Below, in pieces: positions 1-7,266 of a stretch of 21,088 nt of DNA. Position 1 is the first letter of the stretch, and each line of letters opens with the position of its first letter. The DNA is from a virus. Its lineage: Duplodnaviria > Heunggongvirae > Uroviricota > Caudoviricetes. Under the pieces are notes generated by a model. It was not told the DNA's origin and did not search any database. It worked only from the letters and a program-made list of their open reading frames with translations. The DNA is taken from the IMG/VR virus record IMGVR_UViG_2740892231_000001; one strand, written 5' to 3'. The position numbers and the translations under genes are program-made.

Positions 1-777
1 GCATCCGGCCCTCCCGGCTCGCCTTTTTCGCCCTTCTCTCCCCGTTCACCTTTCACACCCTGAAGCCCCTGTGGTCCTGTCTCACCACGCTCACCCTTTG
101 GCCCACGCTCGCCGGTATCGCCTTTTGGCCCGGGAATACCCTGTGGCCCGGTGTCCCCCTTATCCCCCTTCGGTCCCCGCGCATTCTCTGCCCGTTTTTT
201 TGCCTCCTCCGCACTGGCTGCGGACGCTTCCGCACGTTTCAGGATTTCCGCTGCCACCGCTTCCAGCTCTGCAAGGGCTTTCGGGTAATANNNNNNNNNN
301 CCGCTCGCCGGTATCGCCTTTTGGCCCGGGAATACCCTGTGGCCCGGTGTCTCCCTTATCCCCCTTCGGTCCCCGCGCATTCTCTGCCCGTTTCTTCGCT
401 TCCTCTGCACTCGCCGCTGACGCTTCCGCACGTTTCAGGATTTCCGCTGCCACCGCTTCCAGCTCTGCAAGGGCTTTCGGGTAATACTGTGCGTCTTCCA
501 GGTCCATCAGAAATTTATTCAGCGTTCCCGGTGCAGAATCCGCCTTCACCAGAATGTCACCCACATATGACGGCGCGTACCCTTCCGTGTTCAGCGTCAC
601 CCGGTACAACCCCGGCTCAACATCCATACTGTAACTGCCGGTTTCCCCCGGCTGACCATACGCCACCGTGGTGACAATCACCGTCTCCGTTGTGCGGCGC
701 GCTTTCAGCTCTATCGTGCATCCCGGTACCGCTTTTCCCGTACCATCCTTCAGCACACCCGATATTCTGACTGTCAT
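1..777 (-). CDS. stf: Side tail fibre protein, N-terminal part (partial; gene continues beyond the window start; reading frame broken by the 10-N gap at 291-300)
   Basis: ATG at 777-775 preceded by GGGGGA RBS. N-terminus [15 protein letters not shown]... resembles lambda Stf N-terminus [15 protein letters not shown] (recalled). Collagen-like [24 protein letters not shown] repeats; translating the minus strand of 1-290 continues Gly-X-Y repeats to base 1. Confidence 0.8.
291..300. other. 10-N assembly gap inside stf, flanked by a ~185-bp imperfect direct duplication (106-290 and 302-486)
   Basis: Run of n. The flanks are near-identical; all differences I checked are synonymous in the stf frame. 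Confidence 0.9.
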
Positions 778-790
778 GGATTTCCCCCAT

Positions 791-824
791 AAAAAAACCG
801 CAGTACCGGTTTCCCGGCCTGCGG
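791..824 (-). terminator. Rho-independent terminator immediately upstream of the stf RBS
   Basis: Minus strand reads CCGCAG-g-CCGG-gaaa-CCGG-ta-CUGCGG followed by U7 (plus-strand A-run 791-797). The stf start follows about 14 nt downstream. Confidence 0.55.
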
Positions 825-919
825 TAAAATTTGTGGTTTGTTGGTGCTAAAACGGTGCCGTCCGGCTGACCACCCTCAGCAACCGGTCGGCGGGGGATAT
901 TCTCCCCCGCCACGGTTTC

Positions 920-1060
920 TTACTGCTTACACTGTAAGAACGCCGCAATCTCCGCGCCCGCTATCCGGAACCGGAACTCGCACAGTGAAGTGTGGGTGAT
1001 CCAGATAATGAGCACTACCGTGATACAAATCACGGTGGTTTTTAACGGTTTTTGCGACAT
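920..1060 (-). CDS. Hok/Gef-family type I toxin-like small membrane protein (46 aa: MSQKPLKTTVICITVVLIIWITHTSLCEFRFRIAGAEIAAFLQCKQ)
   Basis: Hand-translated; below the 60-aa cutoff of the ORF track. ATG at 1060 with AAGGAG RBS 8 nt upstream, TAA at 922-920. Hydrophobic helix VICITVVLIIW resembles Gef IVICITAVV; SLCEFRFR and EIAAFLQCK resemble Hok/Gef/HokA motifs (DLCEVHIR, EVAAF, AAFLACK), recalled from memory. Confidence 0.6.
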   Translation of the reverse strand: MSQKPLKTTVICITVVLIIWITHTSLCEFRFRIAGAEIAAFLQCKQ

Positions 1061-1184
1061 AAACGCTTGCTCCTTTTACGGAGAGGCGCTAACCTTTCAC
1101 TTGCTTAGGATGAATGGTCAGGCCTCGGGTTAAACATGAATGTTTGTCCGGGGCCTTTTCACATCCGGCCTTCAGGTGTTCCCT

Positions 1185-1194
1185 NNNNNNNNNN
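1185..1194. other. 10-N gap in the J/hok intergenic region, flanked by a 66-bp duplication (1119-1184 and 1217-1282)
   Basis: Run of n with the same sequence on both sides. Confidence 0.9.
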
Positions 1195-1356
1195 CAATTT
1201 GCTGAAGATCGAAAGTCAGGCCTCGGGTTAAACATGAATGTTTGTCCGGGGCCTTTTCACATCCGGCCTTCAGGTGTTCCCTCCGGCCATCAGCCAAAGG
1301 CACCCGCGCATACTGTACGGTTTTTGTCTCCTTCCGGCAATCCCGGGGCGCGATGT

Positions 1357-4300
1357 TCAGCGGATACTGATCCCCGCGCTGTTTTTCTTCACCACTATCG
1401 CCTGAAGGTTACTGATACGTGAACTGCCAAAACTCCCGTTCTGACGTCGTGAACTTACGGTAAAACTCAGGGTGATATGACCATGACCGGCTGGCATATC
1501 GATGATCCCGCTGAAAATTCCCGGCTCTGTCACTGACCTGCCTGAATAAATCCGGCGTCCGTTCTGATCAACATGCAGGAAGCACTCTGTCCAGATGTCA
1601 TTACTGGTGCGGGATTCCTGTTTTGACCCGACATAGATTATCGGCGGGATTATAATCTGCCGGTCAAAGCTGTGATCGTCATACACCGTCAGCGTTCGTG
1701 TACCGTTCGCAAGGTAACTACCATCCACCGGAAAAGCCACCCCTGCACATTTCACAAGATCACCAATAATGTTCTCCGCTTTCAGCGTGCCATTTATCGT
1801 ACAGTTCTCCGCTATCACGACATTATTGAGCGTGCCCGAGTTCGCACTGATATGTCCGCTGATGTCCGCATTGCGGGCCGTCAGCCTGCCCTCCGGCGTC
1901 AGGGAGAACGTCGGGGGATTGCCGGACGAGGTGATGCTCACTGCAAACAGTCGCTTCAGGAACACGTCGTTCATGAACAGCTGATTCCCCTGCGCCACAA
2001 ACAGCGGCGTGGTGTTGCCGTTCTCCGGGTTAATCATCGCGATACGGTCCGCCTGCAGCAGTATATTGCTCAGGGGCTGGCCATCAGCATCCTCAATCCC
2101 CGCACCAATACCGGCAACATACGGAATGCCGTTTTTTGTTTTCTGCACCTTCAGCATGTACAGCGCAGCCAGGTCGTTATTTGTGTCTGTCTGCACCCGC
2201 TGTATNNNNNNNNNNAATATTGCTCAGGGGCTGGCCATCAGCATCCTCAATCCCCGCACCTATACCGGCAACATACGGAATGCCGTTTTTCGTTTTCTGC
2301 ACCTTCAGCATGTACAGCGCAGCCAGGTCGTTATTTGTGTCTGTCTGCACCCGCTGTATCTGCTGTATGGTGGCACTCTGGTCTTCCAGGGTTTTACTGA
2401 CCGTCTGTGTGATTTCATTGCGGGTTTCTGTGATGGTGGTCTTCATCTCCGCCATCTCATCATCAAGCTGGCTGTTATCAATCAGCTCCCACATCCCCTG
2501 TGCCAGATGTGTCTTCCCGATTTCTCCTCTGAAAAAGTCCAGATACCCTTCCGCATCATTGCTCGCCCGGCCACTGGCTTCCACAAACGCAGATTTCCCC
2601 ACCAGATTGACGCTGCGCACATAAAACCAGAAATCCTTCCCCGGCTTAATGTGCGGGCCGGAGACACTCCACTGGCTGCCTGTCCCCAGATAACGGGCAA
2701 AGGTTTCCACCTGTGCCATGTCCGTGATGCGTTTTTCTGAGAACCAGAATTCAGACTGTACCGTCGGGTCATACACCGCCAGCACCGGTACTGCTGTTAT
2801 CTGATAATACCCCGGCGTCAGCTCAATGCTGGCCGGTGCTGCAGGCGCATTAATCCGGAACGCGGTGGTGGCAGGTTCGCCCTGCTGGCCGTAGCTGTTT
2901 ATCGCCCTGACCGTCAGGGTGTATTCCCCCAGAGGCAGGCCACTGAAACGGTGCTCCGTGTCGGCAGTGATGGCGGTGGTCACCAGGCGGCTGTTTTCAC
3001 CACTGCCACTGGTCAGGCGCAGACTGAAGCGCACGCCCTTCACCACCCGCGGCGTGTCCCATTTCGCCAGCGCCAGATACTGGCCGTCTGAGGCACTCAC
3101 CTCCACCGTGAGGTGCTGCACTGCCGGCGGGATGACGCTGTTCAGTGAACCGGTGAGCGGCTCAAAGGTGGCCCCGTTATCCACGATGGCTTCTTTTTCC
3201 GGTACGTGCTGCACTGCCGTGATGGCAAAGGTGCCGTCCGTGTTTTCCCGGATGGAAACACAGCGGAACAGGCGACGACGCAGTGACGGCAGGGAGAGTC
3301 CCCACACACCGTATGTCTCCACGCCATCAGGCAGGACGCTGACCTGTATCCGGTCAGGGGCGGGGTGTGCAGTGATGTCCACGCGCACCGGCTTACCGCT
3401 GCCGTTAATCAGGTTCACCGTCGANNNNNNNNNNGACACAGCGGAACAGGCGACGGCGCAGTGACGGCAGGGAGAGTCCCCACACCCCGTATGTCTCCAC
3501 ACCATCAGGCAGGGTACTGACCTGTATCCGGTCCGGGGCGGGGTGTGCAGTGATGTCCACGCGCACCGGCTTACCGCTGCCGTTAATCAGGTTCACCGTC
3601 GATGTCCCTGCTTCCGGCAGTGTCACCTCACGGTCCAGCGTCAGGGTACGGCTGGCGGCATCGATGGACAGGATGCGTCCGCCGGTCAGGGTCCCTGCGT
3701 AGTCGTTATCACAGATTTCAATAATGTCACCGGGCGTGTGCCGCAGCCCCTGTGACCCGAGCGTGAAATCCACCGTCTGCGTTTCCAGCAGTTCTGTCTT
3801 TATCACCCACAGTCCGGCACGGTGGGCCTGACCGCGGCTGGTACAGCCGAACGCATCCATCTTCAGCAGATTGCGCCCGTAGCGCAGGATGGCGTCCGGG
3901 TCTTCCACCAGTTCCGTGGAAGTCTGCCAGCCGTTCTGCGGGTCGGTGTAATTCACCTCCACCGCCGTGTGCCGGTCCTTCAGGGCACTGAAGCTGTAGC
4001 GGAACCCCACGCCGTTATCATCCACCACCACATCGCTGTTGGTGTACGGCCACACCACATCCGACGGGCGGTCCTGAACGAACGTCAGCGTCTGGCCGTT
4101 CCATACCGGCATACAGCGCATCGCCGAGCAGAAATCCCCCAGGACATCCCACACCTTACGCTGCTGTGACAGGTACGCATTGAAAGTCATCCGCGGCTCT
4201 GTTCCCCCGAAACCATCCGGGACCGTCTGGTCACAGTACTGCCCGATGGCATACAGTGCCCACTTGTCCACGTCCGGGGCCCCCAGGCGTTTTCCCATGC

Positions 4301-5352
4301 CGTAGCGCGGGTGGGTCAGCATGTCCCACAGGCACCAGGCCGGGTTATTGCTGTATGCCGGTTTCAGNNNNNNNNNNAAAGGTCATCCGCGGCTCTGTGC
4401 CCCCGAAACCATCCGGGACCGTCTGGTCGCAGTACTGCCCGATGGCATACAGTGCCCACTTGTCCACATCCGCGGCCCCCAGGCGTTTTCCCATCCCGTA
4501 GCGCGGGTGGGTCAGCATGTCCCACAGGCACCAGGCCGGGTTATTGCTGTATGCCGGTTTCAGACTCCCGTCCCAGATACCGCTGTAGGTGCGTTTTTCC
4601 GGGTCATAGTTTGACGGCACCTGAATGATGCGACCACGGATATGGTAGTTCACCGTCAGCTGCTGGCCACCAAACTGCTCCGCATCCACCTGCAGCCCCA
4701 CAATGGCCGTGTTCGGGTAGCACTGTTTCACATCGATGATTTCGGTGTATGACGACCACAGCGTTCTGTTCTGCAGCTGGTCCGTGGTGCTGTCCGCCGT
4801 CACCCTGACCATCCGGATGTTAAAGGGGCGCTCAGGGAGATTATTCAGAATCACCGACGTCAGATACTGCGAGGTGGTCTTGCCGTTAATGGTGACATCC
4901 TTCTCCGTCACCCAGTGCCCGTTACGCTCAAGCTGAATCAGCAGGCGGACAGAAGAGGGATTACGGTCACCCTTTGAGGTGGTCTCCACCAGTGACTGTA
5001 CCCCGAAGGTGACCCGCAGACGGTCAATGTTCGCTGACGTGATGGTGCGCGTCACCGGCTTTGCCTTCGTCACCTCCACGCCCAGTGCGGTTTCTGCCCC
5101 GGAGGACTCAAAGCCTTCCGGCGGTGTCTGCTCCTGCTCCCCGGCACGCCAGACGGCGGTCACACCGTGTATCACGGGATTACCGTCCGTGTCCGTCAGC
5201 GGGGTTTTGTTCACCAGAATACTCTGCAGTCCCTTCACCGGACCTTCCACCGGTCCCTCACCAATGGCATCAATCACGCTCATCATCTGCGTGGATTTGA
5301 GATTGTCCTTCGCCTCACGCGGTGTGTGCCCCTTGCCGCCCCCTTTACCCAC
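1357..5352 (-). CDS. J: Tail tip / host specificity protein J (central tail fibre); reading frame apparently broken three times by 10-N gaps with duplicated flanks
   Basis: GTG start at 5352 with AGGAG RBS. N-terminus [22 protein letters not shown] and C-terminus ...[17 protein letters not shown]...[10 protein letters not shown] match lambda gpJ (recalled) across the four ORF fragments 4345-5352, 3405-4322, 2177-3505 and 1357-2196. Net length after removing duplications is about 1150 aa, against 1132 aa for lambda J. Confidence 0.95.
2206..2215. other. 10-N gap inside J, flanked by a ~144-bp imperfect duplication (2062-2205 and 2216-2359)
   Basis: Run of n with near-identical flanks (2 mismatches seen). 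Confidence 0.9.
3425..3434. other. 10-N gap inside J, flanked by a ~168-bp imperfect duplication (3257-3424 and 3435-3602)
   Basis: Run of n with near-identical flanks carrying several mismatches. Confidence 0.9.
4368..4377. other. 10-N gap inside J, flanked by a ~185-bp imperfect duplication (4183-4367 and 4378-4563)
   Basis: Run of n with near-identical flanks carrying several mismatches. Confidence 0.9.
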
Positions 5353-6522: not shown

Positions 6523-7266
6523 TTTTCAGAATACCTCTCCCGTTTACTCAGTTGTTCAGGTATATGGTGAAGCAGTTCACCGTTGCCACAGTAAATGGCG
6601 GCATGATTCGGCACCGATGAACCAAAGCAGCACAGCAGGATATCGCCCGCCTGTGCACAGGACGGAGACACCCGGTAAAAGCCGTTGTCTGCCAGGTTGT
6701 CCAGGTACAGGTTCTGACCGTTGCGCCACCAGTCATCCTCACGCACAAAATCCGGCAGCGTTATCCCCGCCAGATGGTATGCATCCCGGAACAGGGTGTA
6801 ACAGTCCGTCACACCGTGTTCAAAGCGCCGTCCGGTCAGGTGCGGCACACAGCGGAACCGGTGAATGTCACCCCGGCAGACCAGCCACCAGGGCAGGGCA
6901 CTCTTTATCTGCAGCCGCCGGTCCGCCTCGCTCAGCCAGGGCAGTCCACCGGGATGACTGTGGACCAGCGCCACAATCTCCCCCTGCATCTGTGCCTGCA
7001 GCCAGTCTTCCGGTGCAATACGAAAATACGCCTCCGGCTCTGCGGAGATATTCACGCAGGACTGGTACCGTTCGCCCTCCGGNNNNNNNNNNCTGTGCCT
7101 GCAGCCAGTCTTCCGGCGCAATACGAAAATACGCCTCCGGCTCTGCGGAGATATTCACGCAGGACTGGTACCGTTCGCCCTCCGGGGTGCTTATCACGAA
7201 GCCGCACGACTCCGCAGGCGCACACCGCCGGGCATGCGCCAGAATCACTGATTCAGTCTGTGTCAT
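6420..7266 (-). CDS. K: Tail tip assembly protein K (NlpC/P60 plus JAMM/MPN domain); interrupted by the 10-N gap at 7083-7092 with duplicated flanks
   Basis: ATG at 7266. MTQTESVILAHARRCAPAESCGFV... matches the lambda gpK N-terminus (recalled). HSHPGG metal-binding motif. C-terminal part ...LLCCFGSSVPNHAAIYCG... Overlaps the I start by about 100 bp, as in lambda. Confidence 0.9.
7083..7092. other. 10-N gap inside K, flanked by a ~94-bp duplication (6989-7082 and 7093-7186)
   Basis: Run of n with near-identical flanks (1 mismatch). Confidence 0.9.

What the first reader, a model, noticed from the sequence alone, without database searches (positions are those of the whole stretch)
920..1060. 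Hok/Gef-family type I toxin-like gene in the lom position between J and stf
A 46-codon ORF, below the 60-aa cutoff of the ORF track, has a strong AAGGAG RBS and encodes a single transmembrane helix followed by the Hok/Gef-like motifs SLCEFRFR and EIAAFLQCK. It lies between the J stop (1357) and the stf start (777), where lambda carries lom, and is bracketed by strong hairpins (889-911 and terminator 791-824). A type I toxin module carried as a moron in a tail operon could contribute to prophage maintenance, abortive infection or host killing on induction.
Basis: partly seen in the sequence, partly recalled or inferred. Interest (0 to 1): 0.7.

Follow-up and report, generated by a model that had tools for sequence, protein, structure and literature searches.

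The report
Hok/Sok toxin cassette in prophage tail operon
The small gene is a genuine Hok-family membrane toxin with its own antisense-RNA antidote, sitting between two tail genes of an E. coli prophage, but this gene family, this exact subfamily and its prophage location are already catalogued, so it is an ordinary, correctly recognised feature.

Summary
The 46-codon ORF at 920-1060 (-) is real. It passes the Pfam Hok/Gef model (42.2 bits, cut-off 22) and PHROG 251. RefSeq already annotates it as "Hok/Gef family protein" between gpJ and the tail-fibre gene in 117 complete E. coli genomes.

A protein identical at 44 of 46 residues represents "cluster 79" in a 2026 Hok survey. It is not among the three homologs that survey found non-toxic.

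The N gap at 1185-1194 is a scaffolding artefact with a 68-nt duplicated overlap. Collapsing it gives the 483-nt J-stf spacer seen in complete genomes.

The spacer holds a full hok/sok-type cassette:
- its own promoter;
- a 417-nt mRNA whose 5' end pairs with a 3' element, supported by compensatory changes in 23 divergent relatives;
- a sequestered ribosome site and start codon;
- a conserved antisense promoter and a 58-nt Sok-like RNA;
- a terminator.

One departure from the plasmid R1 paradigm: no mok reading frame enters hok in this allele. The Sok-target hairpin is also hypervariable between otherwise identical cassettes.

Interest is low. The biological role (addiction, exclusion or lysis help) is untested.

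The parts
920..1060 (-). hok CDS: 46 aa, with an N-terminal transmembrane helix and the SLCE and AAFLQC motifs
   Evidence: alignment of relatives
1070..1075 (-). Shine-Dalgarno AAGGAG, 9 nt before the ATG. GGAG is predicted to pair with CUCC (mRNA nt 125-128) in every fold tried
1312..1340 (-). Putative hok promoter TTGCCG-17 nt-TACAGT (8/12 to consensus). A TAnnnT -10 box at this distance from GGGTGCC is kept in nearly all of 27 representatives, although their upstream flanks are unrelated
   Evidence: The strict scanner did not report it
791..1305 (-). Predicted full-length hok mRNA. It is 417 nt after removing the 98-nt scaffold artefact made of N10 1185-1194, the foreign 20-nt tail 1195-1214 and one 68-nt duplicate copy (1215-1282 = 1117-1184)
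1289..1305 (-). 5' end element (tac-like) GGGUGCCUUUGGCUGAU. It pairs with the 3' fbi-like element
854..870 (-). fbi-like fold-back element GUCAGCCGGACGGCACC. It pairs with mRNA nt 2-17
   Evidence: MFE. RNAalifold on 23 relatives shows both-sided changes in 7-10 sequences at four pairs
1083..1126 (-). Sok-target hairpin (mRNA nt 82-125). Its sequence is hypervariable but it folds as a hairpin in all 23 representatives
   Evidence: also the structured core of the Rfam RF01794 match
1067..1095 (+). Antisense (Sok-like) promoter TTGCTC-17 nt-TAACCT. The -10 box is TAACCT in 21 of 22 divergent loci (TATCCT in L057)
   Evidence: It is only 6/12 to the sigma-70 consensus, so the evidence is conservation and positional homology to sokC
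1103..1160 (+). Predicted Sok-like antisense RNA of about 58 nt: a single-stranded 5' tail, a stem-loop and UUUUC. The 5' end is uncertain by about 4 nt
   Evidence: -21.5 kcal/mol, z = -2.85
940..949 (-). dcb-like box (AUUGCGGCGU, the EIAAF codons), paired with the hok start region AUGUCGCAA
   Evidence: The pairs are invariant, so there is no covariation evidence
889..911 (-). Conserved stem-loop just after the hok stop codon
   Evidence: compensatory changes at 5 pairs
791..824 (-). Intrinsic terminator of the cassette (hairpin plus T7), 13 nt before the stf start codon
1185..1282 (.). Scaffold artefact: N10, a 20-nt tail from another hok allele (TTTCGATCTTCAGCAAATTG) and a 68-nt duplicated overlap

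Best explanation
The J-stf spacer carries a self-contained hok/sok-type type I toxin-antitoxin cassette. It is a 'moron', with its own promoter and terminator inside the late operon.

Shown here in silico:
- a Hok-family pore-forming peptide gene;
- a roughly 417-nt mRNA whose 5' end folds back onto a 3' element, with its ribosome-binding site and start codon base-paired;
- a conserved antisense promoter giving a roughly 58-nt Sok-like RNA, complementary to a leader hairpin 43-100 nt upstream of the hok start.

Inferred from the plasmid R1 hok/sok and Sp5 hokW-sokW paradigms:
- the full-length mRNA is stable and inert;
- slow 3' trimming removes the fold-back element and refolds the leader;
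- abundant, short-lived Sok pairs with that hairpin and the duplex is destroyed by RNase III, so no Hok is made in the lysogen;
- when Sok supply stops or is outnumbered, Hok is translated, inserts in the inner membrane and collapses the membrane potential.

Sok supply could fail through prophage loss, host transcription shut-off by an infecting phage, or prophage induction. On induction, anti-terminated late transcripts read through J into hok, opposing the Sok promoter.

This allele has no mok frame, unlike R1. Sok must therefore act through mRNA decay or refolding rather than by blocking a leader peptide.
For: - Protein family: Pfam Hok/Gef above its cut-off, PHROG 251 full-length, NCBIfam HokA/Hok similarity.
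- Annotation: RefSeq labels it 'Hok/Gef family protein' at the same junction in 117 complete genomes.
- Leader RNA: Rfam RF01794 hit with E = 2.4e-11 once the gap is collapsed.
- mRNA fold: MFE -183.6 kcal/mol, z = -7.3, with 5' nt 2-17 paired to nt 338-354.
- Covariation: the same long-range helix is predicted from 23 divergent relatives, with compensatory changes.
- Refolding: in-silico 3' truncation gives a 5' hairpin and an exposed Sok-target hairpin.
- Antisense RNA: the -10 box (TAACCT in 21 of 22 loci) and the terminator-like hairpin are conserved.
- Toxicity: the 44/46-identical protein 79_1563 was among the tested homologs and is not one of the three non-toxic ones.
- Precedent: hokW-sokW of prophage Sp5 is a functional type I TA that needs RNase III and Hfq and is derepressed on induction.
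Against: - No RNA, protein or toxicity data exist for this exact allele.
- The Rfam score of 55 bits is below the gathering score of 59, and the gathering-level scan found nothing.
- Both promoters match the consensus weakly, and the strict scanner found none.
- No mok frame is present, although R1 needs one for hok translation.
- The SD and AUG stay paired in every predicted fold, so how translation is ever activated is unexplained.
- A frameshifted allele is widespread (P0046, 241 contigs), so some copies decay.
Confidence: 0.85

Rival explanations
1. The cassette acts mainly as a late-lysis helper rather than a classical addiction module. Hok would be made chiefly from Q-antiterminated late transcripts that run from J through hok into stf. 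It would depolarise the membrane and advance or enhance lysis and phage release, as reported for HokW in Sp5.
For: hok lies in the same orientation as J and stf, with no terminator between J and hok. The cassette terminator sits 13 nt before stf, so stf expression itself requires read-through. HokW is induced by mitomycin C, sokW falls, and deleting the locus halves phage release.
Against: The cassette keeps its own conserved promoter, its fold-back lock and its antisense RNA. The same cassette also occurs at prophage ends outside late operons in Salmonella, Serratia and Yersinia. HokW belongs to a different Hok cluster, the HokD-like cluster 35. This role does not exclude the TA mechanism.
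Confidence: 0.3
2. The cassette is an inert or decaying hok remnant. Without mok, and with its ribosome site permanently sequestered, the ORF is never translated and the cassette simply hitch-hikes with the tail-fibre module.
For: No mok frame is present. The SD and AUG are paired in all predicted folds. Frameshifted and truncated alleles exist. Chromosomal hok loci are often degenerate (PMC2887945).
Against: The ORF is intact and nearly invariant across 32 cluster-79 loci, while the Sok-target hairpin diversifies with its structure kept. Compensatory changes maintain the RNA helices across genera. The near-identical peptide is toxic when expressed.
Confidence: 0.1
3. The ORF is a chance open frame or a Lom-type surface protein gene.
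For: The ORF is short (46 codons), and this position is where lambda carries lom.
Against: The HMM hits are significant and orthologues are conserved across genera. There is no Lom similarity in J-hok-stf loci. Where present, Lom is a separate roughly 245-aa gene upstream of hok.
Confidence: 0.01

Closest known systems
Hok 'cluster 79' (representative 79_1563) of Escalera-Maurer et al., bioRxiv 10.1101/2025.08.07.668861; RefSeq WP_000078858.1 'Hok/Gef family protein'; PHROG 251
   Same: Identical at 44/46 residues to 79_1563 and 45/46 to WP_000078858.1. The gene sits at the same gpJ-hok-tail fibre junction. The survey already reports that hok is enriched in prophages and that tested representatives are toxic.
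   Different: Only point differences (T24 vs S, Q46 vs R; I11 vs M). The survey did not analyse mok, Sok or the position within prophages.
hok/mok/sok (parB) of plasmid R1 and the chromosomal hokB/mokB/sokB and hokC/mokC/sokC loci of E. coli K-12
   Same: Shared features: toxin fold family; the leader beginning GGGUGC; 5'-3' fold-back; the GAGGC...GCCUC target hairpin; an AAGGAG site 9 nt before the hok AUG; an antisense promoter between the target hairpin and the hok start; a post-stop hairpin and a terminator.
   Different: No mok frame reads into hok in the window allele. mokC (in frame, ATG at -57) and mokB (+2 frame, ATG at -58) are found by the same test. The peptide is shorter (46 vs 49-52 aa) and has a distinctive MSQK...AAFLQCK sequence. 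The host is a prophage rather than a plasmid or core chromosome.
hokW-sokW of Stx2 prophage Sp5 (Takada et al., Toxins 2021, PMC8621323)
   Same: A prophage-borne hok/sok locus in a lambdoid Stx phage. It is experimentally a type I TA and is derepressed on induction.
   Different: HokW is 51 aa, begins MKQQKAM and belongs to the HokD-like cluster 35. Its primer sequence is absent from all fetched loci. It is a paralogue, not the same gene.
Cluster-72 Hok (MSQKSLITVTICMTV...) of 933W-like Stx2a phages
   Same: About 65% identical peptide and about 77% identical cassette DNA. The RNA architecture is the same and it lies in the same tail-distal moron region.
   Different: It sits directly after lom in 31 of 32 loci rather than directly after J.

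Membership tests
Hok/Gef toxin family (Pfam PF01848) | Score above the curated gathering threshold of the family HMM | tested here: met
   42.2 bits against a cut-off of 22, E = 6.1e-11, residues 10-44. PHROG 251 gives E = 4e-21.
Hok/Gef toxin family (Pfam PF01848) | A peptide of about 50 aa with one N-terminal transmembrane helix and the residues conserved in >80% of Hok peptides (M1, C16, T18, L30, C31, E32, E41 of the survey logo) | tested here: met
   By inspection M1, C12, T14, L26, C27, E28 and E37 are all present, offset by 4 from the logo. S25, C27, E28, E37 and the AAFLQCK motif are invariant in the subfamily alignment.
Hok/Gef toxin family (Pfam PF01848) | Toxic to the cell when expressed | not testable with these tools
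   The 44/46-identical 79_1563 was in the tested set, and only 19_179, 60_1482 and 69_1540 were non-toxic. This exact allele is untested.
NCBIfam HokA equivalog / Hok family subfamily models | Score above the curated cut-off | tested here: not met
   37.9 against 89 bits and 37.1 against 73 bits. It is not an orthologue of HokA-E or R1 Hok, but a separate subfamily.
[quoted passage not shown] | A cis-encoded antisense RNA gene in the hok leader, with a promoter, a target-complementary 5' tail and a terminator hairpin | tested here: met
   TTGCTC-17-TAACCT lies at 1067-1095 (+), and the -10 box is TAACCT in 21 of 22 divergent loci. The 58-nt RNA folds as a tail, a hairpin and UUUUC. This is in silico only, and the consensus match is weak (6/12).
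[quoted passage not shown] | Rfam RF01794 (sok / hok leader) at the gathering score | tested here: inconclusive
   55.0 bits against 59 in the gap-free homologue (E = 2.4e-11). The window scores 42.2 bits because of the artefact. Nothing appears at gathering level.
[quoted passage not shown] | mRNA end-pairing: the 5' tac element paired with the 3' fbi element locks the full-length mRNA | tested here: met
   MFE pairs nt 2-17 with nt 338-354. In the alifold consensus, columns 10-13/371-374 changed on both sides in 7, 8, 10 and 8 of 23 sequences.
[quoted passage not shown] | A mok reading frame that starts in the Sok-target region and overlaps hok (translational coupling) | tested here: not met
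   In the window allele all three frames are closed by stops at -18, -47 and -31, with no ATG/GTG/TTG after them. The same holds in 16 of 23 representatives. In five others long +2-frame ORFs use two different, non-conserved ATGs. In two others a short +1-frame GTG at -5 is present. The leader-to-ATG distance varies by 1 nt between near-identical alleles. The controls mokC and mokB are detected.
[quoted passage not shown] | 3' processing of the hok mRNA, RNase III cleavage of the Sok-hok duplex, and unstable Sok against stable hok mRNA | not testable with these tools
   Only in-silico truncation was possible.
Phage moron (autonomous promoter-gene-terminator unit between late genes) | Own promoter and terminator, inserted between two conserved late genes, and absent from related phages at the same junction | tested here: met
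   The promoter is at 1312-1340 and the terminator at 791-824. The cassette is found next to J C-termini of 46-100% identity, after lom, or at prophage ends in other genera. PHROG category 'moron, auxiliary metabolic gene and host takeover'.
PADLOC anti-phage defence systems | Match to any defence-system protein model | tested here: not met
   No hit at E <= 0.01.

The most novel reading that the evidence does not exclude
The MSQK...AAFLQCK Hok subfamilies (clusters 79 and 72) may be a mok-less variant of hok/sok. In that reading Sok controls hok without a leader peptide. The Sok-recognition hairpin would be a swappable, hypervariable specificity module that lets several near-identical cassettes coexist in one multi-prophage STEC genome without cross-talk. 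The fixed placement at the J/lom-stf junction would couple Hok release to late-operon read-through.
Probability: 0.35. Interest if true: 0.45.

Novelty: already known. Interest (0 to 1): 0.2.

Why it matters
The result confirms that a sequence-only reader can pick a 46-codon toxin gene out of raw DNA. The gene itself adds little. Hok genes in EHEC prophages have been counted since 2010 (14 Hok/Gef genes in the Sakai strain, PMC2887945). This subfamily is annotated by RefSeq and PHROGs and was toxicity-tested in a 2026 survey.

Two details are modestly useful to specialists. The cassette seems to lack mok, and its Sok-target hairpin is the only strongly variable stretch among otherwise identical copies. 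Both bear on how type I antitoxin specificity and translation control evolve.

For annotators, the repeated hok leader is an assembly breakpoint. It produces scaffold artefacts and many 'partial' Hok entries.

Tried and rejected
- The Rfam scan at gathering level found nothing. The permissive scan gave the sub-threshold sok hit plus a chance Clostridiales-2 match to the post-stop hairpin, which I rejected.
- The consensus promoter/terminator scanner found no promoter. Its only hit was the post-stop hairpin read on the opposite strand. The promoters were therefore argued from conservation instead.
- PADLOC gave no hit.
The subfamily alignment worked.
- The genome-contig scan gave only 5 loci.
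- RNAalifold on the antisense alignment that included promoter DNA gave a meaningless structure. It was replaced by a single-sequence fold and per-sequence hairpin folds.
- Short leader ORFs were considered as mok substitutes: MFNPRPDHSS from the ATG at mRNA nt 70, GUG-AAA-GGU-UAG, and AUU after the GAGG motif. All were rejected because none is conserved among relatives.
- A pairing of the 5' GGAGG with the anti-SD CCUCUCC, as a translational activator, was inspected by eye. It has one supporting and one contradicting substitution, so it stays unresolved.
- HokW identity was rejected: the primer is absent and the cluster differs.

Full report
**Observation**

Window 920-1060 on the minus strand is an ATG-initiated 46-codon ORF: MSQKPLKTTVICITVVLIIWITHTSLCEFRFRIAGAEIAAFLQCKQ. 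AAGGAG sits 9 nt upstream of the ATG. A perfect 9-bp GC-rich hairpin (889-911) follows the stop codon. A hairpin plus T7 terminator (791-824) ends 13 nt before the next ATG at 777. Both hairpins lie downstream of the ORF rather than bracketing it.

**Is it a Hok?**

- The Pfam Hok/Gef model scores 42.2 bits against a curated cut-off of 22, E = 6e-11.
- PHROG 251 ('MokW-like host killing', category moron/host takeover) matches over the full length at E = 4e-21.
- The NCBIfam HokA and Hok-family models match at 1e-9 but far below their cut-offs. The peptide is therefore a family member but not an orthologue of HokA-E or R1 Hok.
- All seven residues that a recent survey found conserved in more than 80% of Hok peptides are present, with a 4-residue offset.

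**Already annotated**

The same DNA (96-99% identical) occurs in 117 of 5,426 complete E. coli genomes and in Stx phage 1720a-02. RefSeq annotates gpJ, 'Hok/Gef family protein' (WP_000078858.1) and a prophage tail fibre in that order.

The survey by Escalera-Maurer et al. (bioRxiv 10.1101/2025.08.07.668861) lists 79_1563 as the tested representative of a high-abundance cluster. That protein is identical to the window protein at 44 of 46 residues. Forty-two of the 45 tested homologs were toxic, and 79_1563 is not one of the three exceptions. The same paper reports that hok is about four-fold enriched in prophages. Fozo et al. counted 14 Hok/Gef genes in O157 Sakai in 2010.

**The gap**

The window has six N10 runs, and each has a 68-nt suffix of one flank repeated in the other flank. 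At 1185-1194, collapsing the overlap removes 98 nt. This gives a 483-nt J-stop-to-stf-start spacer that aligns along its full length with the gap-free genomes.

Beyond the overlap, the J-side contig continues for 20 nt with TTTCGATCTTCAGCAAATTG. That is a different allele of the leader, found in eight other loci. The source genome probably holds at least two such cassettes. In this window the J-hok join is therefore scaffolded rather than assembled. Many database Hok entries of this subfamily are 'partial' proteins at contig ends, which fits the leader being an assembly breakpoint.

**Anatomy of the cassette (collapsed sequence)**

*Promoter.* TTGCCG-17-TACAGT lies at 1340-1312, 6 nt upstream of GGGUGCC. 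A TAnnnT box at this spacing is kept in nearly all of 27 representatives, although the DNA further upstream is unrelated.

*The hok mRNA.* From about 1305 to the terminator the mRNA is 417 nt. It folds at -183.6 kcal/mol, z = -7.3.
- Nucleotides 2-17 pair with 338-354. This is the tac/fbi 'end-pairing' that locks R1 hok mRNA.
- RNAalifold predicts the same helix on a plain MAFFT alignment of 23 relatives spanning E. coli, Salmonella, Serratia and Yersinia. Four of its pairs changed on both sides in 7, 8, 10 and 8 sequences.
- The hok start (AUGUCGCAA) pairs with the EIAAF codons, a dcb-like box. The SD GGAG pairs with CUCC. These pairs are invariant.
- The post-stop hairpin covaries at five pairs.
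- The gap-free leader matches Rfam RF01794 at 55 bits, E = 2.4e-11, just under the gathering score of 59.

*The antisense RNA.* On the opposite strand TTGCTC-17-TAACCT (1067-1095) is conserved. The -10 box is TAACCT in 21 of 22 loci and TATCCT in L057. It lies in the position homologous to the sokC promoter region of K-12. The RNA starting about 7 nt downstream (1103-1160) is 58 nt: a roughly 17-nt open tail, a 15-bp interrupted stem-loop and UUUUC, at -21.5 kcal/mol, z = -2.85.

*Refolding.* In-silico 3' truncation makes the 5' end fold locally (nt 1-58). It also forms the GAGGC...GCCUC hairpin (nt 82-125), whose loop is then exposed. This matches the refolding logic described for R1 (background in PMC1635323).

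**What differs from the paradigm**

In R1, Sok acts by blocking translation of mok, whose frame overlaps hok. I applied one test to all loci: the last stop before the hok ATG in each frame, and any ATG/GTG/TTG after it.
- The test recovers mokC (in frame, ATG -57) and mokB (+2 frame, ATG -58) in K-12.
- In the window allele all three frames are closed at -18, -47 and -31, with no start after the stop. The same holds in 16 of 23 representatives.
- Five others have long +2-frame ORFs, but from two different ATGs (-76 or -103). Two others have only a short +1-frame GTG at -5.
- The distance between the leader and the ATG varies by 1 nt between near-identical alleles.

A conserved mok is therefore not present. 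How the sequestered SD is ever opened is unexplained.

**Hypervariable target hairpin**

Among 32 cluster-79 cassettes nucleotide diversity is about 0 almost everywhere. The main exception is the Sok-target hairpin, with 0.14-0.31 per 10-nt bin and five distinct versions. Two further short stretches vary: mRNA nt 41-50, and the loop of the post-stop hairpin. Every representative still folds the target region into a hairpin of -16 to -22 kcal/mol, z = -2.8 to -5.0.

**Context**

- Cluster-79 cassettes lie between a J C-terminus (46-100% identical) and the stf N-terminus in 29 of 32 loci.
- The sister cluster-72 cassette lies directly after lom in 31 of 32 loci of 933W-like phages.
- More distant members sit at prophage ends. 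In Salmonella the cassette is next to hicAB. In Serratia it follows ogr of a P2-like prophage. In Yersinia it is next to com/mom-like genes.

This is typical moron behaviour.

**Mechanism and role**

The molecular identity is secure: a hok/sok-type type I TA cassette. The steps involving RNA stability, 3' trimming, RNase III and membrane depolarisation are inferred from R1 and from hokW-sokW of Sp5.

The biological role is not shown. The candidates are addiction or anti-curing, abortive infection, and help with lysis on induction. Orientation in the late operon favours the last, because anti-terminated transcripts from J would run through hok, against the Sok promoter. HokW also behaves this way. 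However, HokW belongs to another cluster, and the same cassette works outside late operons.

**Verdict**

The feature is already known, so interest is low. The apparent loss of mok and the hypervariable Sok-target hairpin are the only points that go beyond existing annotation.

Noticed in passing
window 291-300, 1185-1194, 2206-2215, 3425-3434, 4368-4377, 7083-7092: There are six N10 joins, each with a 68-nt suffix of the left flank repeated in the right flank. These are unresolved contig overlaps, not missing sequence. They break J into several apparent ORFs (1357-2196, 2177-3505, 3405-4322, 4345-5352) and duplicate part of stf (223-290 = 419-486).
   Followed up: partly
window 1195-1214: The J-side contig ends with a different allele of the hok leader (TTTCGATCTTCAGCAAATTG), which is also found in L016, L018, L021, L023, L030, L031, L033 and L045. 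The source genome probably carries two or more cluster-79 cassettes, and the true partner of this J gene is uncertain.
   Followed up: partly
window 1083-1126 (-) and the homologous region of 32 loci (L014-L045): The Sok-target hairpin is the main variable stretch among otherwise identical cassettes, with 5 versions and diversity up to 0.31 against about 0 elsewhere. The hairpin fold is kept throughout. This is a possible antitoxin-specificity module that would avoid cross-talk between paralogues.
   Followed up: partly
P0046: A frameshifted allele, MSQKPLKTTVICITVVLIIWITHMFTVRVPVPDSGRGDCGVLTV, is recorded on 241 contigs. Its tail is the +2 frame of hok. At least one widespread lineage therefore carries an inactivated copy.
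   Followed up: no
L012 2156-3266 and L061-L092: In 933W-like Stx2a phages a sister 46-aa Hok (cluster 72) always follows lom by about 235 nt, although Lom identity ranges from 64 to 100%. This gene is not HokW. Some phage records leave it unannotated ('none' under the match).
   Followed up: partly
window 940-949 and 1052-1060 (-): The invariant N-terminal MSQK codons and the invariant EIAAF codons base-pair with each other in the mRNA. Part of the peptide conservation may reflect RNA-structure constraint rather than protein function.
   Followed up: no
L013 (pMTY1886_IncFII) 540-760: In this R1-type hok locus the upstream ATG is in frame with hok (MSDNIRIASYRALRKEKKAMKLPR...), as in mokC. 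RefSeq annotates only a 33-aa C-terminal Hok CDS there. The mok arrangement varies even among plasmid Hok genes that are 100% identical.
   Followed up: no
L093, L094: Hok relatives with enterobacterial-type leaders lie on contigs labelled Planococcaceae MAG UBA3378 and Vagococcus sp. WN89Y (Firmicutes). This most likely reflects contamination or mis-binning.
   Followed up: no
L003-L005 3339-4224: In Salmonella the cassette sits back-to-back with a hicA/hicB type II toxin-antitoxin pair at a prophage end, giving two TA systems side by side.
   Followed up: no
window 160-777 (-): The N-terminal part of stf carries collagen-like G-x-x repeats ([23 protein letters not shown]) next to a repeat-prone coiled segment. 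This region is another assembly breakpoint.
   Followed up: no
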